Of a DNA stretch of 64,000 nt, positions 8,732 to 64,000 are shown piece after piece. A program made the position numbers and the translations under genes. Every line of letters begins with the position of its first letter. The first letter of the stretch is position 1. The notes under the pieces were generated by a model. That model was not told the origin of the DNA. It searched no databases and saw only the letters and a program-made list of their open reading frames with translations. This DNA is from Eledone cirrhosa (taxonomy: Eukaryota): contig OZ024743.1 in NCBI GenBank assembly GCA_964016885.1, positions 214,024,001 to 214,088,000 of the forward strand. The letters run 5' to 3'.

Positions 8732-9349
<618 letters not shown>

Positions 9350-22718: not shown

Positions 22719-23490
22719 CTACCCCCCCGGGTCATTATGGGGTTTGAGGGCGAGGTAAGTCCTACGCAATCTATGTTTACATGCAGTAACCAGTTCATCT
22801 TTCTTGTTTAGGAGTTGGTCCGTCGAAAACAGCATTTGTAAAGTTTCATCCGAGCATAAATTGCACGGACGGCGTCCTCCCGTGTAAGAATTGGCTCTGG
22901 ACAGTAATCTCCAAGTGAGATCATAGGTGATGTTGTTGTCCTTGAGGTCCCATATGTGGCCCGAAAGTGTAGTGGCGTGACGCCGGGCCGGGTTTCGGAA
23001 GGTATGTCTATGTTGGTATAGCCGGGTCTTGAAGTCACATGCGGTAAGTCCTATATAGGCTTTGTTGGAGGTATCCGTCCTCACGTTGCACTGGTAGATC
23101 ACATTACGGTCTCTGCATCTATTGTCGAGTGGGCAAATAGATCTATCCGGGCAGTTACACCTCCTGGTCGGTTCTCCACTGCTATTTAGGTTATTTCTGC
23201 CATCGGGGTTGAGTTTTTTGTTGTTAGAGGAGACGATGTTTTGTGCGAAGTTTGGTGTAGTGCTGTAAGAGAGTTTGATGGTATTTTTGTTAATTATGTT
23301 GTGGTAGCGGTGTTGTAATGGGAAGTGTTTTTCAATGAGCCTAAAGAATAGTTTCCCGATGGGAGTAGTCACCTCTGCGTTGTGGGGAGGATTGAACCAT
23401 GTTACATTGCGTGAGCGGCGGTGTCTCCTGCTGGTTCCGCTAATGGGATCTGGACAGTAGGATATTTCCTCCCGGAAATATCCTACTGTC
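22719..23490 (-). pseudogene. PLE C-terminus: linker + GIY-YIG endonuclease (open frame, 5'-truncated)
   Basis: WFNPP, KLSYS, CNC..CPL..C, VIYQC..YIGLT, FKTRLYQH, CNLC..E, CKH. Confidence 0.9.
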
Positions 23491-23552
23491 CTAATTTGCA
23501 ACCACAGAATTACTACTGATTTTTGACAATCACTTTGACCATATATGGAATT

Positions 23553-23646
23553 ACCCCTTGAGAAGATCGGCTATTTAAATACCAGGATAAATGTTCATTT
23601 AGTCCAGAATTAGCCGTCGAAACGGCTTGAGCTCAGCTGTCGGGGT
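23553..23646 (+). ncRNA. Hammerhead ribozyme, U3-A8 variant (family A)
   Basis: Same motif as 695-788. Confidence 0.8.
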
Positions 23647-23760: not shown

Positions 23761-26107
23761 GAAAAGATGAATATAAAATGAAAGTGCTTTTTTAAAAAGG
23801 AATTTATTAGGTATTGATATATGTTTCTGTAACAGACGGAATACCTATGTATCGCTGCTTGCGTAACCATATAATGTTAGCACGTATTCGATAGCAATTG
23901 TATAATCAGTTGTCACTTCTTCAGAGATATTGGATAAATTGGAAAAAATCAGAAAAATTGAAGTATTTATATTAGTTGTAAGAAAGGAAGAAGGGGATTG
24001 TATGTGACAGATGGCAATTCAATTTACTGGTAAACAAGTATATGAAAGGTTTCTAATGAGATTACAATGAGTATATGGTTTATTTTATCTAAATAAGAAT
24101 TTTTGGGAGTGCCTATTTTAATCTATACTTGACCAATTGAACAATGGACAGGGCTGGTCGTTTGGTGTAGTAGTATTAATAGATATAAAGTGTCAATTAA
24201 GGAAGAGGGAGATTTCACTGCTACTGAATAACAATGCTGGTAGCCTGCTGGTATATGCATTAGGGAATTGAATTAAGAAATCTCATTTTATCTATAGCAG
24301 TTTACATTAAATGGTAAAGAATAGAAGAGTTGATAGAATTAAGACTAATAGAGAATGTTAATATGTATTTTGACAATCAAACGGAGATGGAGACAGGCGT
24401 TCAATCCTGGTAGTGTTTGTAATATGAAAATGTAGATTTCAAACGATGGTTACAGTATAGCGATCGCTCTATTCCGTTATTTAATAAAATATTTTTGGAT
24501 TTCATAATACAAAATAATTCCATATTACACAATTTACAAAATTCCTGTCCGTGGCAATGGAGGGTGATGCTATTATATCCCATTTTAGGTTAAATTGTTG
24601 GTTATTTTCGCGCAGCTGCCAAGCCTTGTCTGCGAGTGTTGTTACATAACGCTGGTTTTCATGTTTTATCGAGTAACGATGTCTATAAAGGCGAGATTTG
24701 AAGGAGGTAGCTGTAGACCCCACATAGTACCACTTCTGGCTATCCGATTCGATAGTACATTTGTATATGATGTTGCGTTCAAGACACTGATTGTTCAACG
24801 GACACATTCCTGGTTGGACACAGTTACAGTTATAATTTTGCGTTGTTGTATGTGCATGGATGGGTTGATGAGGTTGCTTAGGTAAGACGGAATGTTGTTT
24901 GTTGTTCTGTGATGTAATAGCCGATGTTTTACGTGTATTGTTATGTGTTGGAAGGCGTTTATACAACCGTTTTGCGTTAAGCTTTTTTATATATTGTTCA
25001 AATGTACTATCGAATCGGTTAGCCAGATGTGGTACTATGTGGTGTCTAAAGCTACCTCCTTCAAATCTCGCCTTTATAGACATCGTTACTCGATAAAACA
25101 TGAAAACCGGCGTTATGTAACAACACTCGCAGACAAGGCTTGGCAGCTGCGCGAAAATAACCAACAATTTAACCTAAAATGGGATATAATAGCTTCGCCC
25201 CTCCATATGGCCACGGACAGGAATTTTGTAAATTGTGTACTATGGAATTGTTTTGTATTATGAAATCCAAAAATAGTTTATTAAATAACAGAATAGAGCG
25301 ATCGTTATACTGTAACCATCGTTTGAAATCTACATTTTCATATTACAAACACTACCAGGATTGAACGCCTGTCTCCATCTCCGTTTGATCCTCAAAATAG
25401 ATATTAACATTCTCTATTAGTCTTAATTCTATCAACTCTTCTATTCTTTACCATTTAATGTAAACTGCTATAGATAAAATGAGATTTCTTAATTCAATTC
25501 CTTAATGCATATACCAGCAGGCTCCCAACATTGTTATTCAGTAGCAGTGAAATCTCCCTCTTCCTTAATTGACACTTTATATCTATTAATACTACTACAT
25601 CAAACGACCAGCCCTGTCCATTGTTCAATTGGTCAAGTATAGATTAAAATAGGCACTCCCAAAAATTCTTATTTAGATAAAATAAACCATATACTCATTG
25701 TATTCTCATTAGAAACCTTTTATATACTTGTTTACCAGTAAATTGAATTGCCATCTGTCACATACAACCCCCTCTCTTCTTCCTTTCTTACAACTAATAT
25801 AAATACTTCAATTTTTCTGATTTTTTCCAATTTATCCAATATCTCTGAAGAAGTGACAACTGATTATACATTTGCTATCGAATACGTGCTAACATTATAT
25901 GATTACGCAAGCAGCGATACATAGGTTTCCGTCTGTTACAGAAATATATGTCAATACCTAATAAATTCCTTTTTAAAAAAGCACTTTCATTTTATATTCA
26001 TCTTTTCTACATTTTTTCCGGAATATAATTTATACTCGTTGAGCAAACCTACACGTACGCTGTTCATCTCTAACGTAACGATATATTATCACTACATTAT
26101 CGATAAC

Positions 26108-28483: not shown

Positions 28484-28840
28484 GGTGGATTGGCAGTATT
28501 GGTAGAGTGTCGGACACCATGCTTTGCAGCATAGAGTAATGGCCCTTGCAATTCTGAGTTCAAATCCCGCCGAGGTTAACTTTGCCTTTCATCCTTACAG
28601 GGTCGATAAAAAAAGTACTAGTCACGCACAATTATTTCTCCATATATACATAATTGTTTCTACTTATGGCACAAGGCCATCAATTACCCAGTGCATTACT
28701 GGTACTTTATTTTATCGACCCCGTAGGGATGAAAGGCAAAAATATCCTCGGCGGGATTTGAACTCAGTCTGTAAAGGGCCGTAAATGTGCTGCAAAGCAT
28801 GGCGTCCGACCCTCTACCGATACTGCCAGTTCACCACCTA
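28484..28840. mobile_element. Tail-to-tail pair of Octopus-type tRNA-derived SINEs
   Basis: Plus copy 28484-28625 (tggcagtattggtagag..gagttcaaatcccgccgaggttaactttgcctttcatcc..gtcgataa); diverged minus copy about 28690-28840. Confidence 0.75.
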
Positions 28841-28899
28841 TTCTCTATATATACATAATGGCTCACAGTGACTGTGCCAATATGTATATAAATATGCAC

Positions 28900-28936
<37 letters not shown>

Positions 28937-29153
28937 GTTAAAAATGTACATCTACATATGCATACTGAAATACTAGTGTGTATATGAATACACACACGTA
29001 TACATATGTAGGTGTACCAAGTCTTTCGCTGGTCGCTTTACAGTGAGCGGCCCAGCTATTCTGTATGTAAACACACAGACAAACCGGTTTTTAGAGTCAT
29101 ACTGGTTTTTCGGGGGAACACCTTCCCCCTATTCTCCAGAAAGCCAGACAAGG

Positions 29154-29198
29154 AATATTGAACTAGTTTCGTTGTTGTTACAACTCATCAGCAATATT
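29154..29198 (-). ncRNA. Minimal type I hammerhead ribozyme
   Basis: Reverse complement of 29553-29597. Confidence 0.85.
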
Positions 29199-29552
29199 TA
29201 CCTATCTGCCGGCCTTTCTGGAGAATTGTAAAAGCACATATCGTTATATGCTTTTTCTATGAAAATTAGTAGTGGGCAGACTAATTTGCATAGAGTGTGA
29301 GTACGCACCGGTTCAGCGGAAACGATAAAAACAAATAACGAAACGAAATTAAATTTCGTTTCGTTTGTAACTCACTTTTGTATGACTGACGCTTAAACAA
29401 TTAAGTTAAAAATGTACATCTACATATGCATACTGAAATACTAGTGTGTATATGAATACACACACGTATACATATGTAGGTGTACCAAGTCTTTCGCTGG
29501 TCGCTTTTGATATGTGCTTTTACAATTCTCCAGAAAGGCCGGTAGATAGGTA

Positions 29553-29597
29553 AATATTGCTGATGAGTTGTAACAACAACGAAACTAGTTCAATATT
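29553..29597 (+). ncRNA. Minimal type I hammerhead ribozyme
   Basis: AATATTG-CTGATGA-GTTGT-aaca-ACAAC-GAAA-CTAG-TT-CAATATT: 7 bp stem I, 5 bp stem II, palindromic ACTAGT stem III, GTT site. Confidence 0.87.
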
Positions 29598-30021
29598 CCT
29601 TGTCTGGCTTTTTTGGAGAATAGGGGGAAGGTGTTCCCCCGAAAAACCAGTATGACTCTAAAAACCGGTTTGTCTGTGTGTTTACATACAGAATAGCTGG
29701 GCCGCTCACTGTAAAGCGACCAGCGAAAGACTTGGTACACCTACATATGTATACGTGTGTGTATTCATATACACACTAGTATTTCAGTATGCATATGTAG
29801 ATGTACATTTTTAACTTAATTGTTTAAGCGTCAGTCATACAAAAGTGAGTTACAAACGAAACGAAATTTAATTTCGTTTCGTTATTTGTTTTTATCGTCT
29901 CCGCTGAACCGGTGCGTACTCACACTCTATGCAAATTAGTCTGCCCACTACTAATTTTCATAGAAAAAGCATATAACGATATGTGCTTTTACAATTCTCC
30001 AGAAAGGCCGGTAGATAGGTA

Positions 30022-30066
30022 AATATTGCTGATGAGTTGTAACAACAACGAAACTAGTTCAATATT
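30022..30066 (+). ncRNA. Minimal type I hammerhead ribozyme
   Basis: Identical to 29553-29597, 469 nt downstream. Confidence 0.87.
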
Positions 30067-30357
30067 CCTTGTCTGGCTTTCTGGAGAATAGGGGGAAGGT
30101 GTTCCCCCGAAAAACCAGTATGACTCTAAAAACCGGTTTGTCTGTGTGTTTACATACAGAATAGCTGGGCCGCTCACTGTAAAGCGACCAGCGAAAGACT
30201 TGGTACACCTACATATGTATACGTGTGTGTATTCATATACACACTAGTATTTCAGTATGCATATGTAGATGTACATTTTTAACTTAATTGTTTAAGCGTC
30301 AGTCATACAAAAGTGAGTTACAAACGAAACGAAATTTAATTTCGTTTCGTTATTTGT

Positions 30358-30395
<38 letters not shown>

Positions 30396-30784
30396 TTACC
30401 CATCCGAGAAAGATGTGTTTCCCTGTGAGTTGAAAATATTATAGAGACCTTTAATCGATTTTTGTACATAGTTGGGTGTGTACATCATTAAAGCAACCAC
30501 GGATAAACAGCTATTTGATGGGATCTATGCCTATTTCTTCATAGTATTATTCTAAAATGGGTGTTATAATTTGCTATAATTATTGATCATTTTATTAGTT
30601 AATTAAAATGTATATTACCAAATGTAGTATTCGAAAAGAAAGCTCTTGAAAGAATAAATATATAAATAAACAAACAAATATTTTGATTCATATGCATATA
30701 TATATGTATGCATGTATATATATATATATGTATATGTATATATATAGCTCTCTGTGTAGTTTACCGCTAACCAAAGAATATAGA

Positions 30785-31545
30785 GCTGAGGCCCAAAACT
30801 ACAGGCCAGTCTCCCTGACGTCAAATTTCAGTAAAGTCTTGGGCCAAATCACCAGAAAGTAGCCGATCACGTTCCTCGAGGAAAATGACCGCCTAACTAG
30901 CACCCAGCATGGATTTCGTCCAGGAAAAAGCTACCTTACACAGCTGTTGCAACACTATGACGGGGTACTGAAACAACTCCTGGACAGCTCACATGGCGTG
31001 ATATATCTTGGCTTTGTGAAGGCCTTTGACAAAGTCGACTACGGAATGATATGTCACAAAATACACAGACACGGCATAATTGGAAAAGTAGGTGAGTGGC
31101 TGCATGATTTTTAAAAGACATAAGATCTTCAGTTATATATTATTCTATCAAGAGCTTTCTTTGCAGCCAATGTGGCCCTCTCAAAGGAAACATCAATAAC
31201 AAGTGGAAGCACTACTGTGTTTGATAGCTCTCTCAGACAGGACTTTTGTAGGACATCCAACATCCTTCACTAGCTATGCTGATGACACAACGGTATCACA
31301 GGCAATAAAACACCCGGCTGATGCTGCCCTTTTACAACAACATCTGGATGTCATATACAAATGAGTTGAGGACAACAATATACAGGTTAATGCTGGAAAA
31401 CTTCAAGCCCTACAATACCAATCTGCTAAAATAAGAACAGTACAACACAGCTACACTGGACGAAGAGGAATTGACATCCCCGTGTCAAGATCGATACGTG
31501 ACCAGGGGATTGACATTAGCGACCAAGCTTCTTTTTCTTCACATA
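30785..31545 (+). pseudogene. CR1-clade LINE RT fragment
   Basis: Homologous to about 46200-46970 (NYRPVSLT, QHGFRPG, AFDKVD, SYADDT). Confidence 0.85.
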
Positions 31546-31939: not shown

Positions 31940-32554
31940 TTTGCAACGGGTCACTTTGTGGCTCAATGAAGAGTTAATAAATTAAATAATCAGAGCTATA
32001 TATCATAAAACATGTCTATAAAATCACCAGATAAAATATATACCGTTTCCTCTCCCAATTAGCATAATTAACCATATAAAAAATCGATTAGACCAAGCGA
32101 TGAGAATAAAGGCTTCTATGAAGAAATCTCCGACAAATAACCGAAAGCAGCCCTTCGCGGCGGTTGCGACGGAGTATTTATCGAATATTTCGACAGCGTG
32201 TATAAATCGACCAGATATACAGTCAACTAAACAGAATTAGGTGTAAAATAAACTAGGAGAAAAGTGAACATATTTAGTTACCTCTACCATGGTTTCGTGC
32301 GCAATTTAAGATATCCGATAACATTGGACATCTGGAGCACCGGACTCTTGAGGAGTTATCAAATTTAGACAATTAATTTTCCAAAGTGATCGCGCCAAGA
32401 ATACATTCAAAAATGGCTAAGAATCGTGACGTAGCAGCGGTCAAGTTAGAAAGAATGTGATTAGTTGCTTGCGGCTGGTGGGCTTTTGCTAGAAAGCGCA
32501 GCCAAATACAGCCAAAATTGTATCTCAACCTAACGGGAGATTATTACATATAAA

Positions 32555-32631
<77 letters not shown>

Positions 32632-32985
32632 TTTGCAACGGCTCAATGAAGAGTTAATAAATTAAATAATCAGAGCTATATATCAGAAAACATGTCTATA
32701 GAATCACCAGATAAAATATATACCGTTTCCTCTCCCAATTAGCATAATTAACCATATAAAAAATCGATTAGACCAAGCTATAAGAATAAAGGCGTCTATG
32801 AAGAAATCTCGGACAAATAACCGAAAGCAGCCCTTCGCGGCGGTTGCGACGGAGTATTTATCGAGTATTTCGACAGCCTTTATTTTTATAGCTTGGTCTA
32901 ATCGATTTTTTATATGGTTAATTATGCTAATTGGGAGAGGAAACGGTATATATTTTATCTGGTGATTCTATAGACATGTTTTATG
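31939..32985. repeat. Direct duplication (period about 690 bp) ending in an inverted copy of about 110 bp
   Basis: About 31939-32197 repeats at about 32631-32877; about 32875-32985 is the reverse complement of about 32685-32793. Confidence 0.8.
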
Positions 32986-33999
32986 ATATATATATATATA
33001 TACATATATATATACATATATATATATACACGCACATGTATGAATATATGATGGCTACAACTCGATTTCGAGCATTTCCATCGCTTGATACTTACTTAAG
33101 CATGAGCATCACGGACGTGGCCTTTTAGTCCTACTAGGGACAACACCCTGCAATACCGTACATCGAACGAAATGTCACATATCGAGCGATGCCTGTGCTT
33201 GAAGCTATTTTTTAGTGAGGTAAGTATTTGCACGGACAAATCCCACTCACTGAACGTCAAATGCATATGTGGAAACCGAAGAACTGGTCTACATCATTGG
33301 ATGCAAATGAAGTTGCAGTTTTTATATCAGAATGACCTTCTCCTAGAGAGATGTTTTAATGGAGACTAGGAGTCTCGCGCTATACAAAAAAGTATATATT
33401 CTTTATTGGATGACTTTTGGGTTCATGCGCCGTTTGGTACATACATACCCAGGTACACATATATATATAGGAATAATTTAAATCAATACACAATCAATAA
33501 TATCGATCTTATTTTCTAGCAATTGCTCGATGACACAACAGTTGTGAAATGTATGGGTCGGAGCGTACACATAATATATTTATGTATCTCTCTCTCTCAT
33601 TCTCTTTCTATCCCTATCTCCATAATATATCTGTATTTTTAACCGTTGCTCAATCAATGTTAAACGTTGATTACCAAATAAATTGACTATGGAGATATAA
33701 AAGATACAGAAGCGAAAACCAACCAAGCAGTGAGTGTGTTCTGTCATTATTTCTGGCAACATTATTACAACTATATGAGCCTCCCCAATATATATATATA
33801 TTTATATATATATATATATATAGTAAGGTGCATTATTGGTTGTGTAAAATGGTCCAATAACTTTATGCTAGCAATATTAAGTTCTCCACGCTTTTGTATA
33901 TCTCCAATTCCATTCGAGGGAACAGCTAGCTGATGTAAAACGGAGTATAAGTATCAAAATGAAAATCCGAAGGCAAAGTAAAATTCCAATCATTTAATT

Positions 34000-39879: not shown

Positions 39880-40604
39880 GATTAATATTAAGAAAAATTA
39901 ATAATACGAAGAGTTAAAATTTGAGATTTGAAAATTCAAGTATAAAATTCATTGTGGGATTTCATAGTAGTTTTCATCTAGGTAGCAACAAGTTGACTGC
40001 TGTGTCCCTTTCTGGTAGTGAATGAGAAGTTATTTGGGGTGTGGGTTATTTTATAAAGGTCAGATTTAGCATTTGAACATAACAAGAACTACAACAGACA
40101 CATTTACACCACCAAACCCAACACACACTAACCACAGGCACATCCCCCACCAACACAAACCAAATACGGCCAACTACACCAAAAGAAACACACCCAACCA
40201 CCACAACACTGGTTTCCGTAGAAATGCCCCCTACATAAACCAACGACGAAATAACATAGATCCAACTCACAACACACACACCACATTCCCCAGAAGAAAT
40301 CCACCCAGACCACTTGAAATCACAACAGAACTTACCCACAACCACACCAGACATCACCCTCAATCCAACAAAAGACAACCCCCAACCTCAACACTCTGTA
40401 CCACAGAAATAACGCACCCAGACCACATGAACCAACAACAGAACCCTTGCTCATCAACAACCACAACACATACCACCCCCGCCATCACATTCACCCTCAT
40501 GAAACAACAAGCTACAGACCCACACGCAACAGACCAACAAAATATAATCACACACAAAACTACATTCCTTTTTTAGGGAAAAGCCTGAAATACCAGGATA
40601 CTCG

Positions 40605-42881
40605 ATGGCCCCCCCTCAGGAGAAACCAAAAATAATCAACCTCTCAAAGACACCTCTAACCAACACACAAATCAACATTTTAAGTAAGGGCCTGAAATTT
40701 ACACCTACACCACGTAAACCAAACTTCCTCGAAATGAAGGATGACATCATGGAATACTGCCGAAAGCTGCGACTAACGGAATTCTTCCACAACGACACCA
40801 ACACTGAAGACGAATCAGTGGTTAGAAATAAAAACAATTTCTGCCCACAAAAGGGAAGAAATAAAGCACTGGACACGTACTGCGAACACATCACCAACTT
40901 TCTCTATGAACAAATTACAAATAAACACACGAAATCAAACCTATCTACACACGAATGGGAAGAATTATTCACACTTAGAAACAACCCTGAGATAACTATC
41001 GAAGAAGCCGATAAAGGCAGTACTGTTGTCATTATGAATACGGACTACTGTAGGACCCTCGCACTTAACATTTTAGAAAACAACACATACTATGATAAAA
41101 CAGAAAACTACAAACACACCAAAACAATGGGGAACCTTTTGACCTTACTGAATAAATACCGCAACAGCTTAACCACAAAAGAGTTTAACTATATAAGCCA
41201 CTTCAAATGCAATACAAGATCTTTTTACGGCTTACCGAAACTCCACAAATGTAAACCTATAAACGATGCATGTGACACCTCAACCAACAATTACATTGAA
41301 CTAACACCACCAGAAGACCTAAAACTCAGGCCAATTACAGCAGGCCCTACATGTGAAACCCACAGACTTAGCAACTTTCTGGACATCCTACTGAAACCCT
41401 TTCTACAACATATACAGAGCTACATACGAGATGACCTTGACATGCTGAAACACCTCCCTAAAACAGTAAGTGCAAATACAATTCTTGTCTCCTTTGACGT
41501 AGTAAACCTCTACACAAACATACCCCACAACTATGGAATAACAGCAGTCCAATACTGGCTTAACACACACCCATCAGAAATACCGACACGCATCAACACA
41601 GATTTTATCACTGACGGACTCCGCTTTATCCTACAAAATAACTACTTCACATTCAATGGTTCAACATACAGACAAGTATCAGGTACGGCAATGGGCACGA
41701 AAGTAGCACCCACATATGCCAACCTTGTCATGGGATTCCATGAACAACAAATATACAGTCAGTCCCTTCTGTTATTTGGAGACTCTTTCCACACACACCT
41801 CAAAGCCAATTGGAAAAGATATCTAGACGACTGCTTTATCCTATGGCAAGAAGACATGAACTAACTTACTACGTTTAAAAACATGATAAACAACATAGAT
41901 AATAACATACAATTCACAATGGAATCCAATCCTAAGGAATTAGCCTTCTTGGATATTCTCATCTCTGTAATAGACGGGAAATTAGATACAGATATATTCT
42001 ATAAACCCACAGATTCCAAGCAATACCTCTTTTTCACATCAAGTCACCCAAAAGATACAAAACTTAACATTCCTTACAATTTGGCCAAACGTATATGTAC
42101 CATAGTATCAGATCGACCTAAACGGGAGCAAAGACTAAAGGAACTAAAAGACACCCTTATCTTAAGAGCCTTTCCACTTGAAATAATCAACAATGGAATA
42201 GACAGGGCAAAACACCTAAATCCCCATCAACTTAACAATCCAAAACAGAAAACCACACTCAACACCCTGCCATATGTATCCACTTTCAACCCCAGAAATA
42301 CCGAAATGTTTGATCACCTACACCAAAACCTCCCCATCCTACTTAAAGATGTAAAAATGAAGTCTATTCTTGAAACACACAAGATCCTTAAAAGTAAAAG
42401 ACAACCCAAATCACTTAAACGCATTCTCACTGGACCAAATATACCCAAACCAATCCTCAACCCTACAGTTACCAAATGTGGTAGAACAAACTGTGGAACG
42501 TGCCTCTACCTCACTGAAGGACAAACATTTACATTCAAAGATGGCCAAACATTTACAGTAAAAAACAATTTCACCTGCAACTCGGAGAACTTGATTTACG
42601 CAATAACTTGCGGTGGGTGCAAACACAACTACATAGGACAGACGGGTCCTTCATTACGCAAAAGAATGACCATCCACCGCCAACAAATCCGGGACGCTAA
42701 CACAAGAAAAATCCCCTTGAGCAGCCATATTGCGAACTGCGCAGGAATGACACTACCCAACTTTAAAATCTTCCCCTTCTACAAGTGCTCAGATTCGTTC
42801 ACACAGCAACAAAGAATAAACAAAGAAAATCTATTCCTTAACAAATTTAAACCAAAACTAAACGGGTTATCACCCCAATAG
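40605..42881 (+). pseudogene. PLE reverse transcriptase + Cys-rich linker + GIY-YIG endonuclease (one in-frame stop at 41862-41864)
   Basis: ADKG, FYGLPKLHK, LRPI, SFDVVNLYTNIP, GTAMGT, RYLDD, FLDI, linker CGRTNCGTC, LIYAITC..C..YIGQT. Both ORF pieces are in the same frame. Confidence 0.93.
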
Positions 42882-44657: not shown

Positions 44658-47600
44658 CTGCTGCTGAATGTCAGAGGCCCTGGTAAAACTCAGTAACATG
44701 AGTAAAATTTCCTACCTGGGAGACTTAGCCATAAGCAATCAAGCACTATGTATGGCACTAACGGAAACGCACCTGACAAGCAGTATAGCAGATTCAGAAA
44801 TACATATACCGAAATATACTGTATTTCGTTAGGACGGGAAGGAGAGAACTCATGGTGGGGTTGCTCTCTAAAACCGTGAAGATGTCACACCAATTGTACA
44901 GTTGACACATTCAAAGTCAGTCTGTGACACACTGATAGTACATATGAAGCAACTACAGACAGTAATATGTGTCACATATCGGCGCCCGATACCCCCATTC
45001 ATGAGGGTACATTTGAGGATAGCCTAAGTAGGATAGAAGAGGCCCTTGACAAACTGGACCAGGGTCTCAACATTCTACTGCTGGGAGACTTCAACCTACC
45101 AAAGGTCAAATGTCCTGAGGGCCACCTCCTCCCTGGAATGACATCAATAGAACAGAGACAGACGGAATCCCTGCTGGCCCTCACACACAGGCTGTTCATG
45201 GAGCAAGCAATACTCCTCCCAACAAGAGGCGAAAATGTCCTGGACCTCTGTTTTACAAACAATGAAGTGCTCATCCACAATGTAAAGGTGACACCAACAA
45301 TTCTCTCGGATCATAACAATTTAGAGCTAATGATATGTGGTCCGAGAGAACCAAAAGAGTCAAAACCACCAAGAAGCTCCGGGACGTTATTCAGCCTTAA
45401 CGTCTACAAGGCTAACTGGAAAAAAGATTAAGAGAGAAATCCGGAAGCAAATATGGAGTGAAAACACCGCCACACAAGACACTAACACACAATTTCAAAA
45501 CTTCATGACAACGATACACACTATATGCAAAAATTTGTCCCGGAGAAAAAGGCAAACAGACACAAACATCTTATTCCCACAGATAGGAAAATCCTTATGA
45601 GACATAGAACCAAGCTCTCAAACGAGTTGAATAGTCAACAAGAAAACAAAAACGAGGAGGAATCGTATTTGAAATGTGCACTACTTGGCACCGAGATTGC
45701 ACTCAAACTTTCCCAGGAAAATGAGAGGGCAAAGAAAGAGAACAGGGCCATAGAAAAGATTAAAACAAACCCTAAGGCCTTCTTTAAATTTGCAAAAGAA
45801 ACTGCCTCGGTACACTGCAAGATTGAGTCACTCTTCCATACGGACAGTTCATTAACCGAAAACCGCCAAGAGATATGTGAAATACTGAACGAACACTACA
45901 AAAGTGTGTTCACATGTCCACTAAGGCACATGCAAATAACGAAGCCAGAGGAGTTATTTGATGCCACAACACTACATGAAGAAATGGCGACCATCAACCA
46001 CATAGACATAACGGAGGAGGATGAAATTAGAACAGACTCAGCTGCTGGACGTGATGGATTCCCAGCAGTTCTCTTAAAAACATGTAAGCGGGCCTTAGCA
46101 ACTCCACTGAAGATGCTCTTCAGAAGCTTCTTGGCTAGCGGTGTACTACCCAGGGAGCTGAAAGAAGGCACAATATGCGCTAACCATAAAGGAGGTAGCA
46201 GAGCGGAGGGCAAAAACTATAGGCCAGTCTCCCTGACGTCGTATATCAGTAAGGTCATGGAGCGAGTCGTCAGAAAGAAACTGGTCACTTCCTCGAGCAA
46301 CATAACCGCCTGACTAGCACCCAACATGGCTTCCGCCCAGGAAGAAGCTGCCTTACACAGCTGCTACATCACTACGACTGGGTACTGAAACAACTACTAG
46401 ACAGCTCACATGTGGACGTGATATATCTTGACTTTGCGAAGGCCTTTGACAAGGTCGACCACGGAATGATATGTCACAAACTACACGAACTCGGCATAAC
46501 TGGAAAAGTAGGTGAGTGGCTGCATGACTTCCTAAAGGACATAAGCCAGACAGTCGCAGCAAATGGGACCCTCTCAAAGGAAACAACAATAACAAGTGGG
46601 GTGCTCAGGGGACAGTACTGGGACCACTAATGTTTTTGGTGGCTCTCTCACACATTCCCTCTGTAGTACATACAACAACATCCCTCACTAGCTATGCTGA
46701 TGACACTAAGGTAGCACAGGCAATCAAAAACCCGGCTGACACTGCCCTTTTACAACAAGATCTGGATGCCGTATACAAATGGGCGGAAGAAAACAACATG
46801 CAGTTTAATGCTGGAAATTCCAAACCCTACAATACAAACCTCCAAACAAACCTGCAAACATAAATATAGTACAACACAGCTACACAGGACCAGGAGGGAT
46901 CGGTATCTCCGTGTCAAAATCGATACGAGACCTGGGCATAGACATGAGCGATGATGCATATTTTTCCTCACACATCATGAAGGTCGCGACAATGTGCAGA
47001 CGACTCGGTGACTCGATCTTGAGGACTTTCCGGACAAGAGACCGAGACACCATGTTGATACTATGGAGGACATTTGTCGTAAGCATCCTGGTCTACTGCT
47101 CCCAGTTGTGGTCACCCCAGAGTGTCAAATTAACAACGGAGCTTGAGGCAATCCAGCGAAGCTACACTAAGAGGATTGCCACGATGACGGAGACACGCTA
47201 CTGGCAGAGGCTAAAGGAACTGAACCTCTACTGTGAGCTGTCTAGTAGTTGAACGAAGACGCGAGAGATATGCAGTGATCTACATGTGGAAAATCCTGGA
47301 GGGAGCAGCACCAAACTTTGGCATTAGGAGCTGGACCAACCATCGAACAGGACGTCAGTGTGTGGTGCCAAAGGTCCCGTCTTCCACATCTAGAATAAGG
47401 TGCAGGTATTGCAATAGCCTGGGATTCAAGGGCCCTCAACTCTTCAACAAGCTGCCGAGCGATCTGAGAGATTTGCATGACGTGGAGGTGGATGTCTTCA
47501 AGAAACATCTCGACACCTTGCTATCCAGGATCTCGGATGAGCCCACAGCAAGGCACGAGGGAAACCTAAGGGCAGCAGCAACAAACTCCCTCTTACACCA

Positions 47601-47702
47601 GTGGCCAACCTATACAGGCTGGAGATAAAATGTGTAGCAACAAGGGCTGCCTCAGCATGGCCTCAGTCGGATGGCTGAAACAGGTAAAAGAGTAAAAGAG
47701 TA
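44655..47702 (+). mobile_element. CR1-clade LINE ORF2 (APE + RT), frameshifted, inserted in (TA)n
   Basis: LTETHL, LLGDFNLP, LDLCF, SDHN, NYRPVSLTS, YLDFAKAFDKVDH, SYADDTK, RDLG, ERRRERY; 3' (gtaaaaga) repeats. Confidence 0.9.
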
Positions 47703-51261: not shown

Positions 51262-54200
51262 AAACCCCGTGACCAAGAAATACCGGGATGGCGGCCGGCG
51301 GGGAATAGCCGTGTCTCTAGGGGAGAACGACCCCTCTAGTCTTGGTTGACTCTCGTTCTAGAAGTGGTAACACGAAATGATTACCTCTTGGCGGATAAGG
51401 ATAAAACGCGACAAAATAAAGTAAATGTCTAATGATAAAATCTCAAACCGGATCGGCCGTCACCCGGGTAAAAAAGGGCCGCGTCCCTCAGAGAGGAACC
51501 AGACTGGGGTCGAAAAATCAGCTAATGATTCAAACCTTCCCATCACTTCGGAACTGGAGACCTCCCATAACCGGAATACTCCTACTGTTGGCCCTCCATG
51601 CTCACCACCAAGAAATCCAAAGAAAAAGAGAGAAAAATGGTCAAGGGAAGATAATAAAGAAGTCCTTGAGGCTTTCTACACTGCCATGTACTACCCATCA
51701 AATACATCGAATACAGAACAGACATATATCAACTGGAAAAAGAAACATCCCGAAAACAGAGGCTATATTGACAGTAACAAACTAGCCAATATACGAAGAA
51801 ATATTGTAAGAAAAAAGTTACTAACTGATATAGAAATTGATCAGATCAAGCTATTAGCACAAAATCAGCGAAGGGAAAATGAAACATGTGTCAGTGAAAA
51901 CGAGGTAAACTGTAACACTTCGAGTTCCAGGGTTGGGGCGGAATCACTGGCAACAGAACAAATTAAAGAAAGGATCGAAAAAGTGGAGGGAGTGCATGCT
52001 CAAGATGAAACTCTAAATGAAACTAATGAGATCGTAAATGATAAAGAAATTAATGAGAATGAACTTGCCAACTTGAAGGATGAAATTATGATCGAATGGA
52101 TGAAAATGAAAGAATCTAACATGGTGCAGTGAGACACCCTCCCTAAGATCCAGAACTCCAAACAGAACCAAAAGATAATACACAAGACTAACATAATTCT
52201 CAAAAACATTATCATCACAAACAAACTAAACATTACTGATTTAAATCATCTCTATTATGCATCGGTTAAAGTCACCACTCACTTATGTGGAGTGAAGATG
52301 AAAAAACAAAGGAATTCCCACAAGAAATCTACTTGGCAAGAGAACATCAATCGCCAAATAAACCTTCTCCGATCTGACAGAAATTTTAACAAACTATAAA
52401 GTAGGTGAACATGTTAAACAAACTAAACTTAGAAAATTGAAAAGAAAGTACAGTATAAAATCAACAAGTGACATAGACATGCTGATAGAAACAATCAAGC
52501 AAAAAGTGTCGGCCAAAGCTGCTCGTATAAGGCGCTTTGGAAAACGATCTAGATTCTATAAGGACAATAATATGTTCAAAAACAACCAAATAAACTTCTA
52601 CAGAAAAATTGGTAAGTCAACAATAACTGCTAAATCAATACCACCCAAGAAGGAAGTGCAAGCATTGTGGGAAAAGATCTGGGCCGAAGAAAAAGTTCAT
52701 AATATACATGCCCCATGGAATGACAGACAAATGAAAGATACAGCTCACCTTGAGGAACAAATATGGGAAAATATAACAGTTGAACAGTTGTGCTTGGCTC
52801 TAAGAAAAAACAGCAAATGGAAATCCCCAGGAAAAGACAAATACAAAATGTTTGGATAATGCCTTCACAGAGTCTCATGAGCTGTTAGCCCAACTTTACA
52901 ATGAAATAGTTAAGGAGCCAGAAAAGATACCATCATGGCTAGTTAACGGAATTACACTCCTGCTTCCGAAGAATGATGAGACAAACAATCCCAAAAATTA
53001 CAGACCGATAACTTGCTTGACCACAATGTATAAAATTTTAACATCAGTCCTAACTGAATACACATATGACCACCTGATAACAAATGACCTATTTCCCATT
53101 GACCAGAAAGGGTGTAAACCAGCCTCATATGGCTGTAAGGATCAGCTTTTGGTTAACAAAATGCTACTGGAAGATTGTCATAATAGACACACAAATCTAT
53201 CAATTGCTTGGATAGATTATAAAAAAGCATTCGATAGTTTGCCACACAGTTGGATTGAAAAATGCTTAGAGATTTTCAAAATATCCCCCGTTGCCAGGAG
53301 GTTTTTGTCATTCAGTATGAAGACATGGAAAACGACACTCCTTTTGAATAGTGAAACAAAATCACTGGAAGCTGGAGAAGTTAATATTAATTGTGGAATT
53401 TTTCAGGGTGACTCTTTATCACCGCTTTTATTCTGCATCGCACTTATACCATTAAGTAAAATGCTCAATTAAACAAAACATGGATATAAAGTCTATGACA
53501 AAACCATTAATCACTTGTTCTACATGGATGACCTGAAACTATTTGCAAAAAATGATGAACAATTGCAAGGGCTATTATCCACTGTGGAGCAGTTCAGTGA
53601 TGACATTAAAATGGAGTTTGGACTAGATAAATGCGCCAAAGCAACGTTCACAAAGCTGCTGAAAAGTTCAGATATTAATCTTGATCGGGGGAACGTGATA
53701 AGAGAACTTGATCAAGAAAAAACTTACAAATATCTAGGTGTTTGTGAAGGAGACGGAATCAAGCACTCGGCAATGAGGGAAAGGATAAGGAAGGAATGTT
53801 ACCGCAGAGTAAGAGCAATCTTAAGAACGGAATTGAATGCAAGGAAAGGATCGATGCCATAAACACGCTTGCAATACCAGTAGTAACCTACAGTTACAAT
53901 GTCATCAACTGGTCAAGCACAGAGATCCGTAGGCTCGATACAAAAATTCGAAAATTCTTAGCCATGCACAGAATGCATCACCCTAAGGCAGATACAGATA
54001 GAATATATCTCCCTAGGAAAGAAGGAGGACGTGGGTTAATCCAGTTAGACATTGCGTTGAAAACTGCAACAATTGGATTATCTACATATCTAAGGGAATC
54101 ACATGATTGGATGATCAAACTTGTTTTGAAACACGAAAGCATCAAAAGATCATACTCCATTACAAAAGATGCACAAATATACAGTAATGGACTACACATT

Positions 54201-54883
54201 TCAGAAGTCCCATTTACTGCTGAAATGGAAAACACAGAAAAAGCAAAGCAGGTAAAAGTAACTGCAAAGAAAGAACTGCTACAGAAACTGGCTAAGAAAT
54301 GGAAAGAAAAGCCTCTGTATGGAAATTACCCAGAACGAGCTAACAATCCTGATGCTGACAAAACATTAACCCATCAGTGGTTGGCCTCTTCTGGACTGAA
54401 ATCGGAGACTGAAGGTCTGATTATATCAGCACAAGATCAGTGTCTGCCATCAAAAAATTACCAAGCCAACATAATAAAAAATGGATGCAGCCCATTATGC
54501 CGTGTATGTAAAAAACAACCAGAGACCATTGACCATATAATTTAAATGTGCAGTCCTATAGCTCCAACCGAATACCTAAACAGGCATGACAGAGCTGCAC
54601 AATACATACATTGGATAATGTGTAAGCATTTTGACCTGACCCATCAAAAGAATTGTTGGGAGAATCAACCACCTCCCATACTTAAACAAGATCACATCTC
54701 AATCTTGTGGAACTTTAGCATCCAAACAGACCGAAAAATAGATGCAAATAGACCTGATATAATACTGAAGGACTTTAAAAAGAGGGTATGCCTGCTAATT
54801 GATATGTCCGTTCCAATAGACAAGAATGTATGTATAAAAACATTTGAAAAATTGAGCAAGTATAAGGACCTGGAGATAGAAAT
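51262..54883 (+). mobile_element. R4/Dong-clade non-LTR retrotransposon (RT + CCHC + restriction-like endonuclease), disrupted and 3'-truncated
   Basis: WKSPG, NYRPITCL, IDYKKAFDS, GIFQGDSLSP, YMDDLK, GGRGL, CRVC..ETIDHI, RHD, RPDI, IDMSVP, KxxKY. Confidence 0.9.
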
Positions 54884-61637: not shown

Positions 61638-64000
61638 ATTAACAATATTAAATAAATGGAAACTATATTTATAAAACCATATTTATTTCATTATATATAT
61701 TTCAGGGATATCATATTAACAATATGCTATGCCTTCCCCAGACAAAATACAATATAAACAGTTTTATAGATAAATAGATTCGACATACCGTAACAACATC
61801 TACTTGCATTTGAGAAGGTTGATTTGGTAGTGACAAAATTGTACACAGAGAGAAAGAAAGAGAGAGAGAAAGAGAGAAAAAGAGAGAAAAAAAAAAGAAA
61901 AAAAAAAGAAAGAAAGACAGAAAACGAAGAAAAAGAAAAAGAAGAAATGCATGGAACAAAATAGAGAGATGGAAAGATAGATAAAGAGAAGAACTTCATG
62001 TAAAGAAACAGAAAGAGATATATATATAGAGAGAGAGAGGAAATAGAGATAGATACATATATATAGAAAGCTAGGTAGTGGGACGTCTGTTGAATAACGT
62101 ATCAATGATACATTTATTTATTTATTTATTTATTTAGCTCTAGTATTAATGTAAGGGAGATATATGGAGAGAAAACCAGCTGTTATATAGGGAGAGAAAA
62201 AATATATAGAGAGAAAAAATTTAAATTTACAAAATTTAAAAATATCCAGACACAGGCGAGGCGTAAAAACCTCTGTTTTAATGTAGAGGTATTAGTATTT
62301 ACAAAACCAGCCTCTACATTGTAAATATCAGTATTCCTGAATGAGATATGTATCCACAATGTGTGAAAATAAATGGTCTTATGTTTAGTTTAAAAAAAAA
62401 AAAAAAAATTCATGTTTATGTGATAATTACAAACATCTATGTGAATGTACATGATCAATTCTGCAAACCCTAAGTTCACGGAAAGTATTCTCAATGCGGT
62501 ATAAAAAAATTTAAGTATACATATATGTGTATATAGAGTCAATATTACTATTTCTGTCTCTACTCTACAAGATTATCTATCAAGCAAAAATAGAGCAGAT
62601 TTCAATATACTAATAAAAATAAAAATATATCGGAAACAAAACTAAAAATAACAATAATAATAATAAGTAATAATAAAATAGAAAACTAAGAAATATTACG
62701 AAAGAATATTACATATTAAAAATATTACATAATTAAAACATTTACATATTAAAAATATTAAAAATAAAAATATTAGGAAATACTACAATAATAAAAATAA
62801 AATAAACCACAAAGATCAACCCTTCAAAATTAATTGACAATATATTGCCAAGTTCATTATAAACATCAGAGTCAAAAAACAGATAAAGCCAAAAATTATC
62901 TATCAAATCGCATCTAGCAAAGATCATTTCAAAAAGTATAGGATGCCCAATTTGGTCTACATGTGTTCTTATATTTAATATAGAAGTTTATCTAGTGTAA
63001 CGTTTATTCGAAATATTTGGAGCATCAACTTTTAGGGTAGCTTAATTTTTCATGAAGAATGTTTAAATAAAAATAAATAAAATAAAAATAAAAAGAATAA
63101 AAAGAGAATCAAAGATTTATCGGCTAGTTTCCCATATAATTATAAATCAAACTAAATATACTACATTTTAAATTTAAATTTATATTTAAACGTTGAGTTT
63201 AATCTATGTTTGCAACAACTGAATAAATTTGACCGTAGATTAAGGGAATTTTTAGATTTTAGTATAATGAATATCTCCTCTGCGCAGAGGTCACATGTCT
63301 CAGAGGATGAATTAAAAGGAATCCCTCTTGAGACTATATTCCAAGCCGTCGAATATCTAACGTTATCTAGCTTAAGTTGCCATAGTACGCCTGATAGTGC
63401 CGTTGAAGATTTTTTACTTGGATCTGTGAAAGGATTCTTGTGGTTATTATAGCGAAGTTTAAATTCCGTCGATGTGGAACCGACGTAGTTAAAAGAATTA
63501 GAGTCAGTATTAACATTACAATTGTATACTATATTTTTAACTAAGCAGTTGTTATTTAACGGACATTTAGATCTATCTCTACAGTTACATTTGTTAACTT
63601 GTATATTATTTATGCTGTTATCACTAGGTTTTAAGTTCCTATTATTTATTCTATTGATATTTTGTGCTAAATTTTTGGTGGATGAGTAGGTTAATTTAAT
63701 TGTATGTCTATTGAAAATTGAGTGATATCTATGTGTTCTAGGGAAGCGATTATCAAGAGCTTTAAAAAATAGTTTAGCGATGTGGGTTTTAATGTTTAGT
63801 GAGAAAGGGGGGCAAACCAAATTATGTTCCTAGTTCTATTTCTTTTAAATAGAAAAGAACTAGGAACATAATTTGGTTTGCCAAGAAATAGAACTAGGAA
63901 CATAATTAATAATATTTTTAGTTTTGTTTCCGATATATTTTTATTTTTATTAGTATATTGAAATCTGCTCTATTTTTGCTTGATAGATAATCTTGTAGAG
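61635..64000 (-). mobile_element. Family C PLE, 5'-truncated foldback continuing beyond the window
   Basis: GIY-YIG ORF and long 3' UTR with a degenerate HHR (CTGGGGA..GAAATATATATA) near 61685-61750. About 63910-64000 is the reverse complement of about 62563-62650. Confidence 0.85.
63161..63820 (-). pseudogene. PLE C-terminus: GIY-YIG endonuclease (open frame, 5'-truncated)
   Basis: PPFS, KLTYS, CNCRDRSKCPLNNNC, IVYNC..YVGST, FKLRYNNH, CDLCAEE, CKH. Confidence 0.9.

What the first reader, a model, noticed from the sequence alone, without database searches (positions are those of the whole stretch)
29591..30066. The monomer is self-complementary along almost its whole length (branched fold)
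Seen local hairpins: GGGGGAA/TTCCCCC, TCTGTGTG/CATACAGA, GCTGG..CGCT/AGCG..CCAGC, CTACATATGTATAC/GTATGCATATGTAG, AACGAAACGAAAT/ATTTCGTTTCGTT, CTATG.AAATTAGT/ACTAATTT.CATAG, AAAAGCATATA/TATGTGCTTTT. Long-range pairs: GTATGACT/AGTCATAC and GTGAGT/ACTCAC. TTCTCCAGAAAG/CTTTCTGGAGAA extends HHR stem I and would hold the cleaved ends together for ligation. G:U-type pairs suggest selection on RNA rather than DNA structure (inference).
Basis: partly seen in the sequence, partly recalled or inferred. Interest (0 to 1): 0.75.

Follow-up and report, generated by a model that had tools for sequence, protein, structure and literature searches.

The report
Conserved branched fold of a retrozyme
This 469-base unit is one of thousands of copies of a non-coding jumping repeat whose RNA is predicted to fold into a branched shape, kept in a distant sister repeat through paired sequence changes, and that shape likely lets it cut itself out, close into a circle and be copied back into the genome by a Penelope-type transposon enzyme.

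Summary
The fold is real, but 'almost whole length' overstates it: 66.5% of bases pair, against 60% in shuffles. Folding energy is z about -11 (+) and -9 (-). The unit (29591-30059) is the monomer of a non-LTR retrozyme with a type I hammerhead; about 9,500 cores match in this genome.

Covariation supports the fold. A sister family only 61% identical folds independently to the same branching shape (2 of 4 copies exactly). It shares 37-52 pairs, 7-14 of them changed on both sides (null for two copies: about 3 shared, at most 3 two-sided).

Two joined units fold as a double hammerhead; a lone circle is predicted to be off. Of 54 two-armed insertions, 49 end at two fixed sites beside (TA)n, the Penelope 'tail', and sister-family ends fall at the homologous sites. 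A>G changes shared by all units of an insertion suggest copying from an edited RNA, probably a circle.

The G:U argument alone is weak. Cleavage, expression, circularity and the partner enzyme are untested. The scan has already reported this element class, the two-armed ends and the editing marks on other DNA of this genome. Verdict: new member of a known kind.

The parts
29591..30059 (+). Retrozyme monomer (469 nt), from one predicted hammerhead cut to the next; predicted circular RNA
28931..29507 (-). Left (inverted) arm of the insertion: monomer positions 123-469 then 1-231; outer end at the proximal start site, next to (TA)n
29509..30361 (+). Right arm: monomer positions 388-469, one full unit, then 1-303; outer end at the distal start site, next to (TA)n
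29553..29597 (+). Type I hammerhead 1: stem I AATATTG/CAATATT, CUGAUGA, stem II GUUGU/ACAAC, GAAA, palindromic ACUAGU stem III; predicted cut after GUU at 29590
   Evidence: Rfam HH9 38.8 bits, below gathering score 52
30022..30066 (+). Type I hammerhead 2; predicted cut between 30059 and 30060; pairs with hammerhead 1 through ACUAGU in the predicted double hammerhead
29154..29198 (-). Type I hammerhead in the inverted arm
29591..29621 (+). 5' strand of stem I and its two extensions (pairs with 29994-30028); closes the body of the monomer
   Evidence: mean probability 0.86, 0.44, 0.99; stem I two-sided changes in the sister family
29623..29640 (+). Hairpin GGGGGAA/TTCCCCC; compensatory changes within the family (2 pairs) and against the sister family (4 pairs vs S175)
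29650..29840 (+). Domain closed by long-range helix GTATGACT/AGTCATAC (invariant in the family; TA>CG and AT>GC in the sister family), holding the long TA-rich arm 29735-29806
29815..29828 (+). Small hairpin CTTAA-TTGT-TTAAG; insertion ends at monomer positions 231-236 fall in its loop and 3' side (inferred proximal reverse-transcription start)
   Evidence: homologous ends in the sister family
29845..29923 (+). Domain closed by GTGAGT/ACTCAC with the 13-bp hairpin 29855-29883 and a U-rich single strand ending at 29895 (monomer position 305, inferred distal start); 29821-29895 is the Penelope-type 'tail'
29926..29964 (+). 14-bp helix carrying ATGCAAAT (29929-29936), conserved in sequence in both families; hot spot of A>G changes; possible snRNA-type promoter element (octamer role recalled, untested)
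29965..29990 (+). Hairpin AAAAGCATATA/TATGTGCTTTT
28880..28931 (.). Left (AT)n target tract
30363..30393 (.). Right (TA)n target tract

Best explanation
The unit is the monomer of a non-coding, hammerhead-bearing repeat inserted as two back-to-back arms in (TA)n, and its branched RNA fold, conserved by covariation, likely serves as the scaffold for a retrozyme life cycle. Step 1 (inferred): a tandem array is transcribed. Step 2 (predicted): the long stem I folds each unit back on itself so that two neighbouring hammerheads pair through the ACUAGU palindrome and cut as a double hammerhead. Step 3 (inferred from other retrozymes): the monomer is ligated to a circle, probably by RtcB; a lone hammerhead with a 1-bp stem III is predicted to be off in the circle, which would keep it closed. 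Step 4 (ends shown, enzyme inferred): a Penelope-type RT/GIY-YIG protein nicks (TA)n on both strands and starts copying at two fixed internal sites about 70 nt apart that the fold presents. It would run round the circle, and the two cDNAs are joined at variable inner ends. Editing of A to I in the helices is likely fixed as A>G in all units of an insertion.
For: Fold: z -11. Within-family covariation: 97.9% of cells paired, 19 two-sided cells (0 of 500 shuffles), slid controls 31-48%.

Selection: transmitted variants keep pairing in 13 of 22 states vs 21 of 89 unit-only variants (p=0.003; without A>G 6 of 15 vs 11 of 79, p=0.027). Variable sites are 25 of 228 paired vs 29 of 136 unpaired (p=0.009), while unit-only variants are equal per site.

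Sister family (61-62% identical): same level-5 shape in 2 of 4 copies on + RNA only; shared pairs 52, 49, 43, 37 with 14, 13, 9, 7 two-sided. Column-permutation null for two copies: mean 2.6-2.7 shared, maximum 15; two-sided maximum 3.

Ribozyme switch: the MFE of 29520-30095 has the double-hammerhead pairing (-206.7; constrained double -204.9 vs two singles -190.4). An active single hammerhead costs 7.6 kcal/mol in the circle.

Ends: 54 of 54 two-armed insertions are divergent and 49 of 54 have one end at 229-238 and the other at 301-307. The 10 sister-family ends matched by a motif script lie at the homologous sites. Two internal RT start sites delimiting the tail were shown in vitro for a Penelope element (PMC11167929).

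Template: inner ends show no excess at the cut site (2 of 114) and arms reach 14.3 kb. A>G is 7 of 17 insertion-wide variants vs 17 of 185 unit-only (p=0.001). A339G has 117 hits, largely in arrays, vs 3 single hits for the T340C control. This insertion has its own T134C in 4 of 4 copies across both arms. Open RT plus GIY-YIG frames exist in the genome.
Against: No cleavage, transcript or circle was observed.

The double-hammerhead stem III has ensemble probability of only about 0.24, and the two stem I registers are about equal. The cut triplet is GUU in nearly all cores of this subfamily (GUC in 71 hits, against 5,279 cores); GUU is recalled as the weakest NUH triplet. In the 2026 preprint only 1 of 9 predicted frog retrozymes cleaved.

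Within the family only 5 pairs change on both sides (34 of 500 shuffles reach that), both long-range helices are invariant, and states are not independent events. With DNA parameters, shared pairs on the - strand reach 45 for one sister copy.

Some long arrays are mosaic in one arm, which fits later DNA-level amplification or multimer templates. The triple A>G is not private to one insertion (at least 5). No partner element shares recognisable sequence. The 79 insertions were not a random sample.
Confidence: 0.75

Rival explanations
1. Same element and same fold, but the template is an uncleaved linear multimer transcript rather than a circle. The hammerhead is dispensable, and long uniform arrays come from recent DNA-level amplification.
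For: Hammerhead mutants did not affect insertion by the anole Penelope protein in vitro, and unprocessed RNA was the main substrate (PMC11167929). Mosaic and period-3 patterns in one arm of some arrays. GUU triplet.
Against: Arrays of 20-24 units carry the same rare variants in both opposed arms. The core and the ACUAGU palindrome are kept in two families 61% alike, with covarying stems I and II.
Confidence: 0.17
2. The self-complementarity is selected or generated at the DNA level (folding of the single-stranded cDNA, hairpin-driven conversion, TA-microsatellite origin of the long arm), not in RNA.
For: Both strands fold strongly. TA-rich stretches give large z-scores here. The long arm is an expanding (TA)n hairpin in the sister family. 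DNA-parameter folds share up to 45 pairs on the - strand for one copy.
Against: z is -7.4 without the TA arm. The shape is conserved only for + RNA, and shared pairs are higher on + in 4 of 4 comparisons. A>G is strand-asymmetric. The covarying set includes ribozyme stems I and II.
Confidence: 0.05
3. The unit is the detached pseudo-LTR of an autonomous Penelope-like element, and the fold is simply that element's RT-binding structure.
For: Frog retrozymes are homologous to Penelope pLTRs (preprint 10.64898/2026.07.22.740005). Tail-type ends.
Against: BLAST of the monomer against 40 GIY-YIG loci found only separate retrozyme insertions and TA-rich matches. UTRs read after those frames and in one Hydra-like family show no homology by eye. 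Only part of a very large set was examined.
Confidence: 0.1

Closest known systems
Metazoan non-LTR retrozymes (coral, mussel, axolotl/newt satellite 2; Cervera and de la Pena 2020, PMC7229834, parts 2-4 of 6 read)
   Same: Tandem non-coding units, each with a type I hammerhead; GC below 50%; no LTR; predicted highly self-paired circles. The 1-bp stem III with palindromic tetraloop matches HHR_Amex1, which works as a dimer.
   Different: 468 nt against 170-400 nt there (inside the 51-972 bp range of the 2026 preprint). Divergent two-armed insertions in (TA)n with two fixed ends. Whole-monomer fold supported here by covariation; in the parts read it is only an MFE prediction. No RNA evidence here.
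Penelope-like elements (Craig et al. 2021, PMC8557442, passages; Frangieh et al. 2024, PMC11167929, parts 1-2 of 4)
   Same: Tandem plus inverted insertions, (TA)n preference, a tail present at one end only, two internal RT start sites, hammerhead with minimal stem III.
   Different: No ORF. The tail is about 69-74 nt rather than 30-40. The start sites are U-rich, not an AC-rich stem-loop.
Viroids and plant LTR retrozymes (from PMC7229834 discussion; otherwise recalled)
   Same: Small, structured, ribozyme-bearing RNA, predicted circular.
   Different: Branched and only 66% paired. Type I hammerhead on one strand only. Genome-encoded in thousands of copies. No LTR, PBS or PPT arrangement seen.

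Membership tests
non-LTR retrozyme | Type I hammerhead in every unit | tested here: met
   Core, stems I-III and NUH read directly; Rfam HH9 37.8-38.8 bits, below gathering score 52; stems I and II covary
non-LTR retrozyme | Short tandem repeats in many dispersed copies | tested here: met
   5,279 and 9,503 core matches, controls 0; arrays up to about 31 units
non-LTR retrozyme | Non-coding, no LTRs, GC below 50% | tested here: met
   No frame of 120 aa or more over the element; GC 0.38; ends are partial units
non-LTR retrozyme | Stable, highly self-paired predicted circular RNA | tested here: met
non-LTR retrozyme | Self-cleavage of the transcript | not testable with these tools
   Only folding predictions
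non-LTR retrozyme | Expressed as linear and circular monomer RNA | tested here: inconclusive
   Indirect only: A>G marks shared across units and arms
Penelope-mobilised non-autonomous element | Tandem/inverted insertion with a tail between two fixed ends, in AT-rich or (TA)n targets | tested here: met
   49 of 54 two-armed insertions
Penelope-mobilised non-autonomous element | Co-occurring intact RT plus GIY-YIG elements | tested here: met
   L135 938-aa frame with RVT_1 and GIY-YIG hits; 745-747-aa frames of a young Hydra-like family, label inferred
Penelope-mobilised non-autonomous element | Sequence shared with the terminus of an autonomous partner | tested here: inconclusive
   None found in 40 GIY-YIG loci or one Hydra-like family; small sample
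Viroid-like replicon | Rod-like, near-complete pairing or ribozymes on both strands | tested here: not met
   66.5% paired and branched; hammerhead hits on the sense strand only
Viroid-like replicon | RNA-to-RNA replication (minus-strand RNA) | not testable with these tools
   No stranded RNA data

The most novel reading that the evidence does not exclude
The circle is amplified as RNA in the germ line, a viroid-like replicon that is also pasted into chromosomes. One edited form with three A>G changes that destroy the conserved ATGCAAAT element occurs in at least five otherwise near-identical insertions on three chromosomes. If that element is the promoter, those copies could not be each other's parents, and one edited RNA lineage must have been multiplied or reused without a DNA stage.
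Probability: 0.07. Interest if true: 0.85.

Novelty: new member of a known kind. Interest (0 to 1): 0.45.

Why it matters
Highly self-paired folds are expected for retrozyme circles but, in the paper sections read here, rest on energy predictions alone. This pair of families gives a covariation-supported architecture. It ties three functions to named helices: double-hammerhead cutting, an off state in the circle, and two reverse-transcription start sites. That makes the long-proposed route (circle plus Penelope enzyme) testable with defined mutants. It is a refinement of a known class, which the scan has already met many times in this genome.

Tried and rejected
No RNA holder was listed by the run search. 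Contigs from four coded runs of unrecorded kind were laid; they show presence of pieces and the same variants but nothing on expression.

A DNA search with the tail region returned nothing, not even the window itself, so it is uninformative. Look-up of earlier findings by sequence was empty.

Partner hunt: BLAST and reading of 40 GIY-YIG loci and a Hydra-like family gave only short AT-rich resemblances (a TTTCGTTTCA word in one family's UTR; TTTCCATTTAT near an end of the Hydra-like family). I judged these chance-level.

Rejected: arms stopping at the cut site as a sign of linear monomer templates. Apparent cases were alignment artefacts; the count is 2 of 114. Rejected: the triple A>G as private to one insertion. 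Rejected: z-score alone as proof. Rejected: G:U count as proof. Rfam miRNA hits are TA-repeat noise below gathering scores. The bacterial promoter scan is irrelevant here. Coats et al. 1994 on the newt promoter is not held; I saw it only as cited in PMC2220036.

Full report
OBSERVATION. Ten of the 12 quoted motif pairs are in 29591-30066 as written; AGCG..CCAGC is AGCG.CCAGC, and CTTTCTGGAGAA lies outside (this unit reads CTTTTTTGGAGAA). The stretch folds at z -10.8 (+) and -8.4 (-), with 0 of 100 shuffles as good. As a circle it gives z -11.0 and -9.0, and -7.4 without the TA-rich arm. Only 66.5% of bases pair, against 60.2% in shuffles, and 43.5% are in pairs above probability 0.9. Three of 14 random stretches of the window also reach z -9.7 to -14.9. 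So the fold is stable and branched, not near-complete, and it needs comparative support.

ANATOMY. A type I hammerhead recurs at 29553-29597, 30022-30066 and, on the other strand, 29154-29198. Rfam HH9 scores 37.8-38.8 bits against a gathering score of 52; the core was read directly. The predicted cuts define a 469-nt monomer, 29591-30059. The insertion is an inverted arm (28931-29507) plus a direct arm (29509-30361) between (TA)n tracts. The 3.0-Gb genome has 5,279 cores of this subfamily and 9,503 under a looser pattern, controls 0. Scan notes call the animal a cephalopod; I did not test this.

COVARIATION WITHIN THE FAMILY. From 71 distinct full monomers of 87.5-100% identity I aligned 20 chosen to span the tree. 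The window's own circular MFE structure is 97.9% paired across them. Nineteen cells change on both sides (0 of 500 shuffles) but in only 5 pairs (34 of 500); slid controls are 31-48% paired; both long-range helices are invariant. RNAalifold gives 6 of 146 two-sided pairs, including hammerhead stem II. Across 79 insertions (428 units; best hits and the first hits on one contig, not random), pair states found in three or more insertions keep pairing in 13 of 22 cases, against 21 of 89 for unit-only variants (p=0.003; 6 of 15 vs 11 of 79 without A>G, p=0.027). Transmitted variation falls on 25 of 228 paired vs 29 of 136 unpaired sites, while unit-only variation is equal (0.39 vs 0.40 per site). 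These states are not independent events.

COVARIATION ACROSS FAMILIES. A weak BLAST hit led to a sister family with 18,114 marker hits. Ten full monomers were extracted and 4 of them aligned with 6 family members. They are 61-62% identical to the window. Folded one by one, they share 52, 49, 43 and 37 pairs with the window at the same columns, of which 14, 13, 9 and 7 change on both sides and 2-3 on one side. These include stem I, stem II, the first hairpin and GTATGACT/AGTCATAC. Sixty column permutations for each of two copies give 2.6-2.7 shared pairs on average (maximum 15) and at most 3 two-sided. Two of the four copies have exactly the window's level-5 shape on + RNA; none do on the - strand or with DNA parameters. 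One copy does share 45 pairs on - DNA. GTGAGT/ACTCAC is present by eye in the sister family but is misaligned in the automatic alignment.

THE G:U CLAIM. The unit has 11 G:U pairs on + and 12 on -. Among 112 pairs predicted on both strands, family variants give G:U(+) 21 vs A:C(+) 7 (p=0.013), but 7 vs 4 when shared by two or more rows and 10 vs 6 among transmitted states. Two sister copies give 15 vs 6 and 14 vs 6.

RIBOZYME. Stem III is one pair plus the palindromic loop of ACUAGU, like axolotl HHR_Amex1, which cuts as a dimer (PMC7229834). The MFE of the real two-hammerhead stretch is the nested double hammerhead with both CUGAUGA cores open (-206.7). The constrained double form scores -204.9 and two singles -190.4. 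In the circle the core is sequestered and opening it costs 7.6 kcal/mol. Ensemble probability of the shared stem III is only about 0.24. GUC occurs in 71 hits, so GUU dominates. Ligation of mussel and axolotl monomers was 30% and over 80% with RtcB and 1-3% alone.

INSERTION. All 54 two-armed insertions are divergent; 49 have one end at 229-238 and the other at 301-307, 1 has both near 231-237, and 4 are other. Of 25 scored as single-armed, 21 end near 305. The first site lies in a small hairpin, the second on a U-rich single strand. The 10 sister-family ends picked up by a motif script lie at the homologous places (the script looked only there). This matches the Penelope tail and its two internal RT starts (PMC11167929; PMC8557442). 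Inner ends are spread round the monomer, with 2 of 114 near the cut; 39 of 53 and 32 of 50 arms exceed one monomer (the sample favours full units).

TEMPLATE. Among variants private to one sampled insertion, A>G is 7 of 17 when shared by all units and 17 of 185 when in one unit (p=0.001). Over all 225 private variants A>G vs T>C is 27 vs 15 (p=0.06). Genome-wide, A339G has 117 hits in several lineages, and the T340C control has 3 single hits. Two arrays chosen for A339G carry 5 and 8 further A>G in every unit (their nearest neighbours are about 2% away, so some may be subfamily differences). The triple change is in at least 5 insertions. One 22-unit array is uniform in both arms, while others are mosaic. 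I read this as reverse transcription of edited RNA, most simply a circle. An uncut multimer remains possible.

PARTNER. The genome is rich in Penelope-like elements, but no shared terminus was found. ATGCAAAT at 29929 is conserved in both families. Newt satellite 2 has an snRNA-type promoter (passage in PMC2220036); the octamer's role in it is recalled, not checked.

KNOWN AND NEW. Read: PMC7229834 parts 2-4 of 6; preprint 10.64898/2026.07.22.740005 parts 1-3 of 5 (proposes Penelope origin; 35 species, 31 vertebrates plus three insects and a coral); PMC11167929 parts 1-2 of 4; passages of PMC8557442 and PMC2220036. No supplements were seen, and they may list cephalopod retrozymes. Searches for retrozyme+octopus (3 papers), hammerhead+cephalopod+retrotransposon (3), retrozyme+A-to-I+rolling circle+reverse transcription (2) and retrozyme+covariation+secondary structure (7; listings only) showed no title or abstract on this family or on a covariation-supported retrozyme fold; the library is partial. 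Earlier scan notes already describe this class, the two-armed ends and the editing marks in this genome. They gave me the editing, promoter and Hydra leads, and they are not independent support. What this finding adds is the comparative support for the fold and the mapping of the ribozyme switch and both start sites onto it.

VERDICT. Observation partly confirmed, interpretation partly supported. New member of a known kind; interest 0.45.

Noticed in passing
L146, L155-L184 (G000): Sister retrozyme family, 18,114 hits of a 20-nt marker, monomers 430-538 nt, GUA cut site; its long arm is an expanding (TA)n hairpin that varies between units.
   Followed up: yes
window 40548-42881 (+): Penelope-like element: RT frame (RVT_1, below cut-off) and GIY-YIG frame separated by one stop.
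   Followed up: partly
window 63161-63829 (-), also 22719-23570 (-) and 24502-25173 (-): Endonuclease-end fragments of Hydra-like Penelope elements (label inferred). The first belongs to a young family with 745-747-aa open frames elsewhere (L215-L218).
   Followed up: partly
L074, L225-L228: Triple A>G in ATGCAAAT, fixed in all units of at least five insertions that otherwise differ by 0-0.4%.
   Followed up: partly
L223: Another hammerhead repeat (core CTGATGA...GAAACGCGTA) inserted inside a Hydra-like element.
   Followed up: no
L011:2072-2349: A SINE-like insertion in a retrozyme copy contains CACTCACTGTAAA, nearly the same word as the monomer's weak hairpin at 29706-29718.
   Followed up: no
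window 9009-9154: Near-perfect long hairpin, probably an inversion junction; miRNA hits are below gathering scores.
   Followed up: no
window 31960-32992: 244-nt direct repeat with a 117-nt inverted copy between TA tracts, a similar tandem/inverted layout.
   Followed up: no
window 28541-28780, 30780-31500, 44928-47628, 51420-54545: Inverted pair of short repeats, and degraded LINE-type RT fragments (labels recalled from motifs).
   Followed up: no
runs X5, X6 (organisms B, C): Contigs of two other organism labels hold 190-230-nt pieces with 4-8 differences from the monomer.
   Followed up: no
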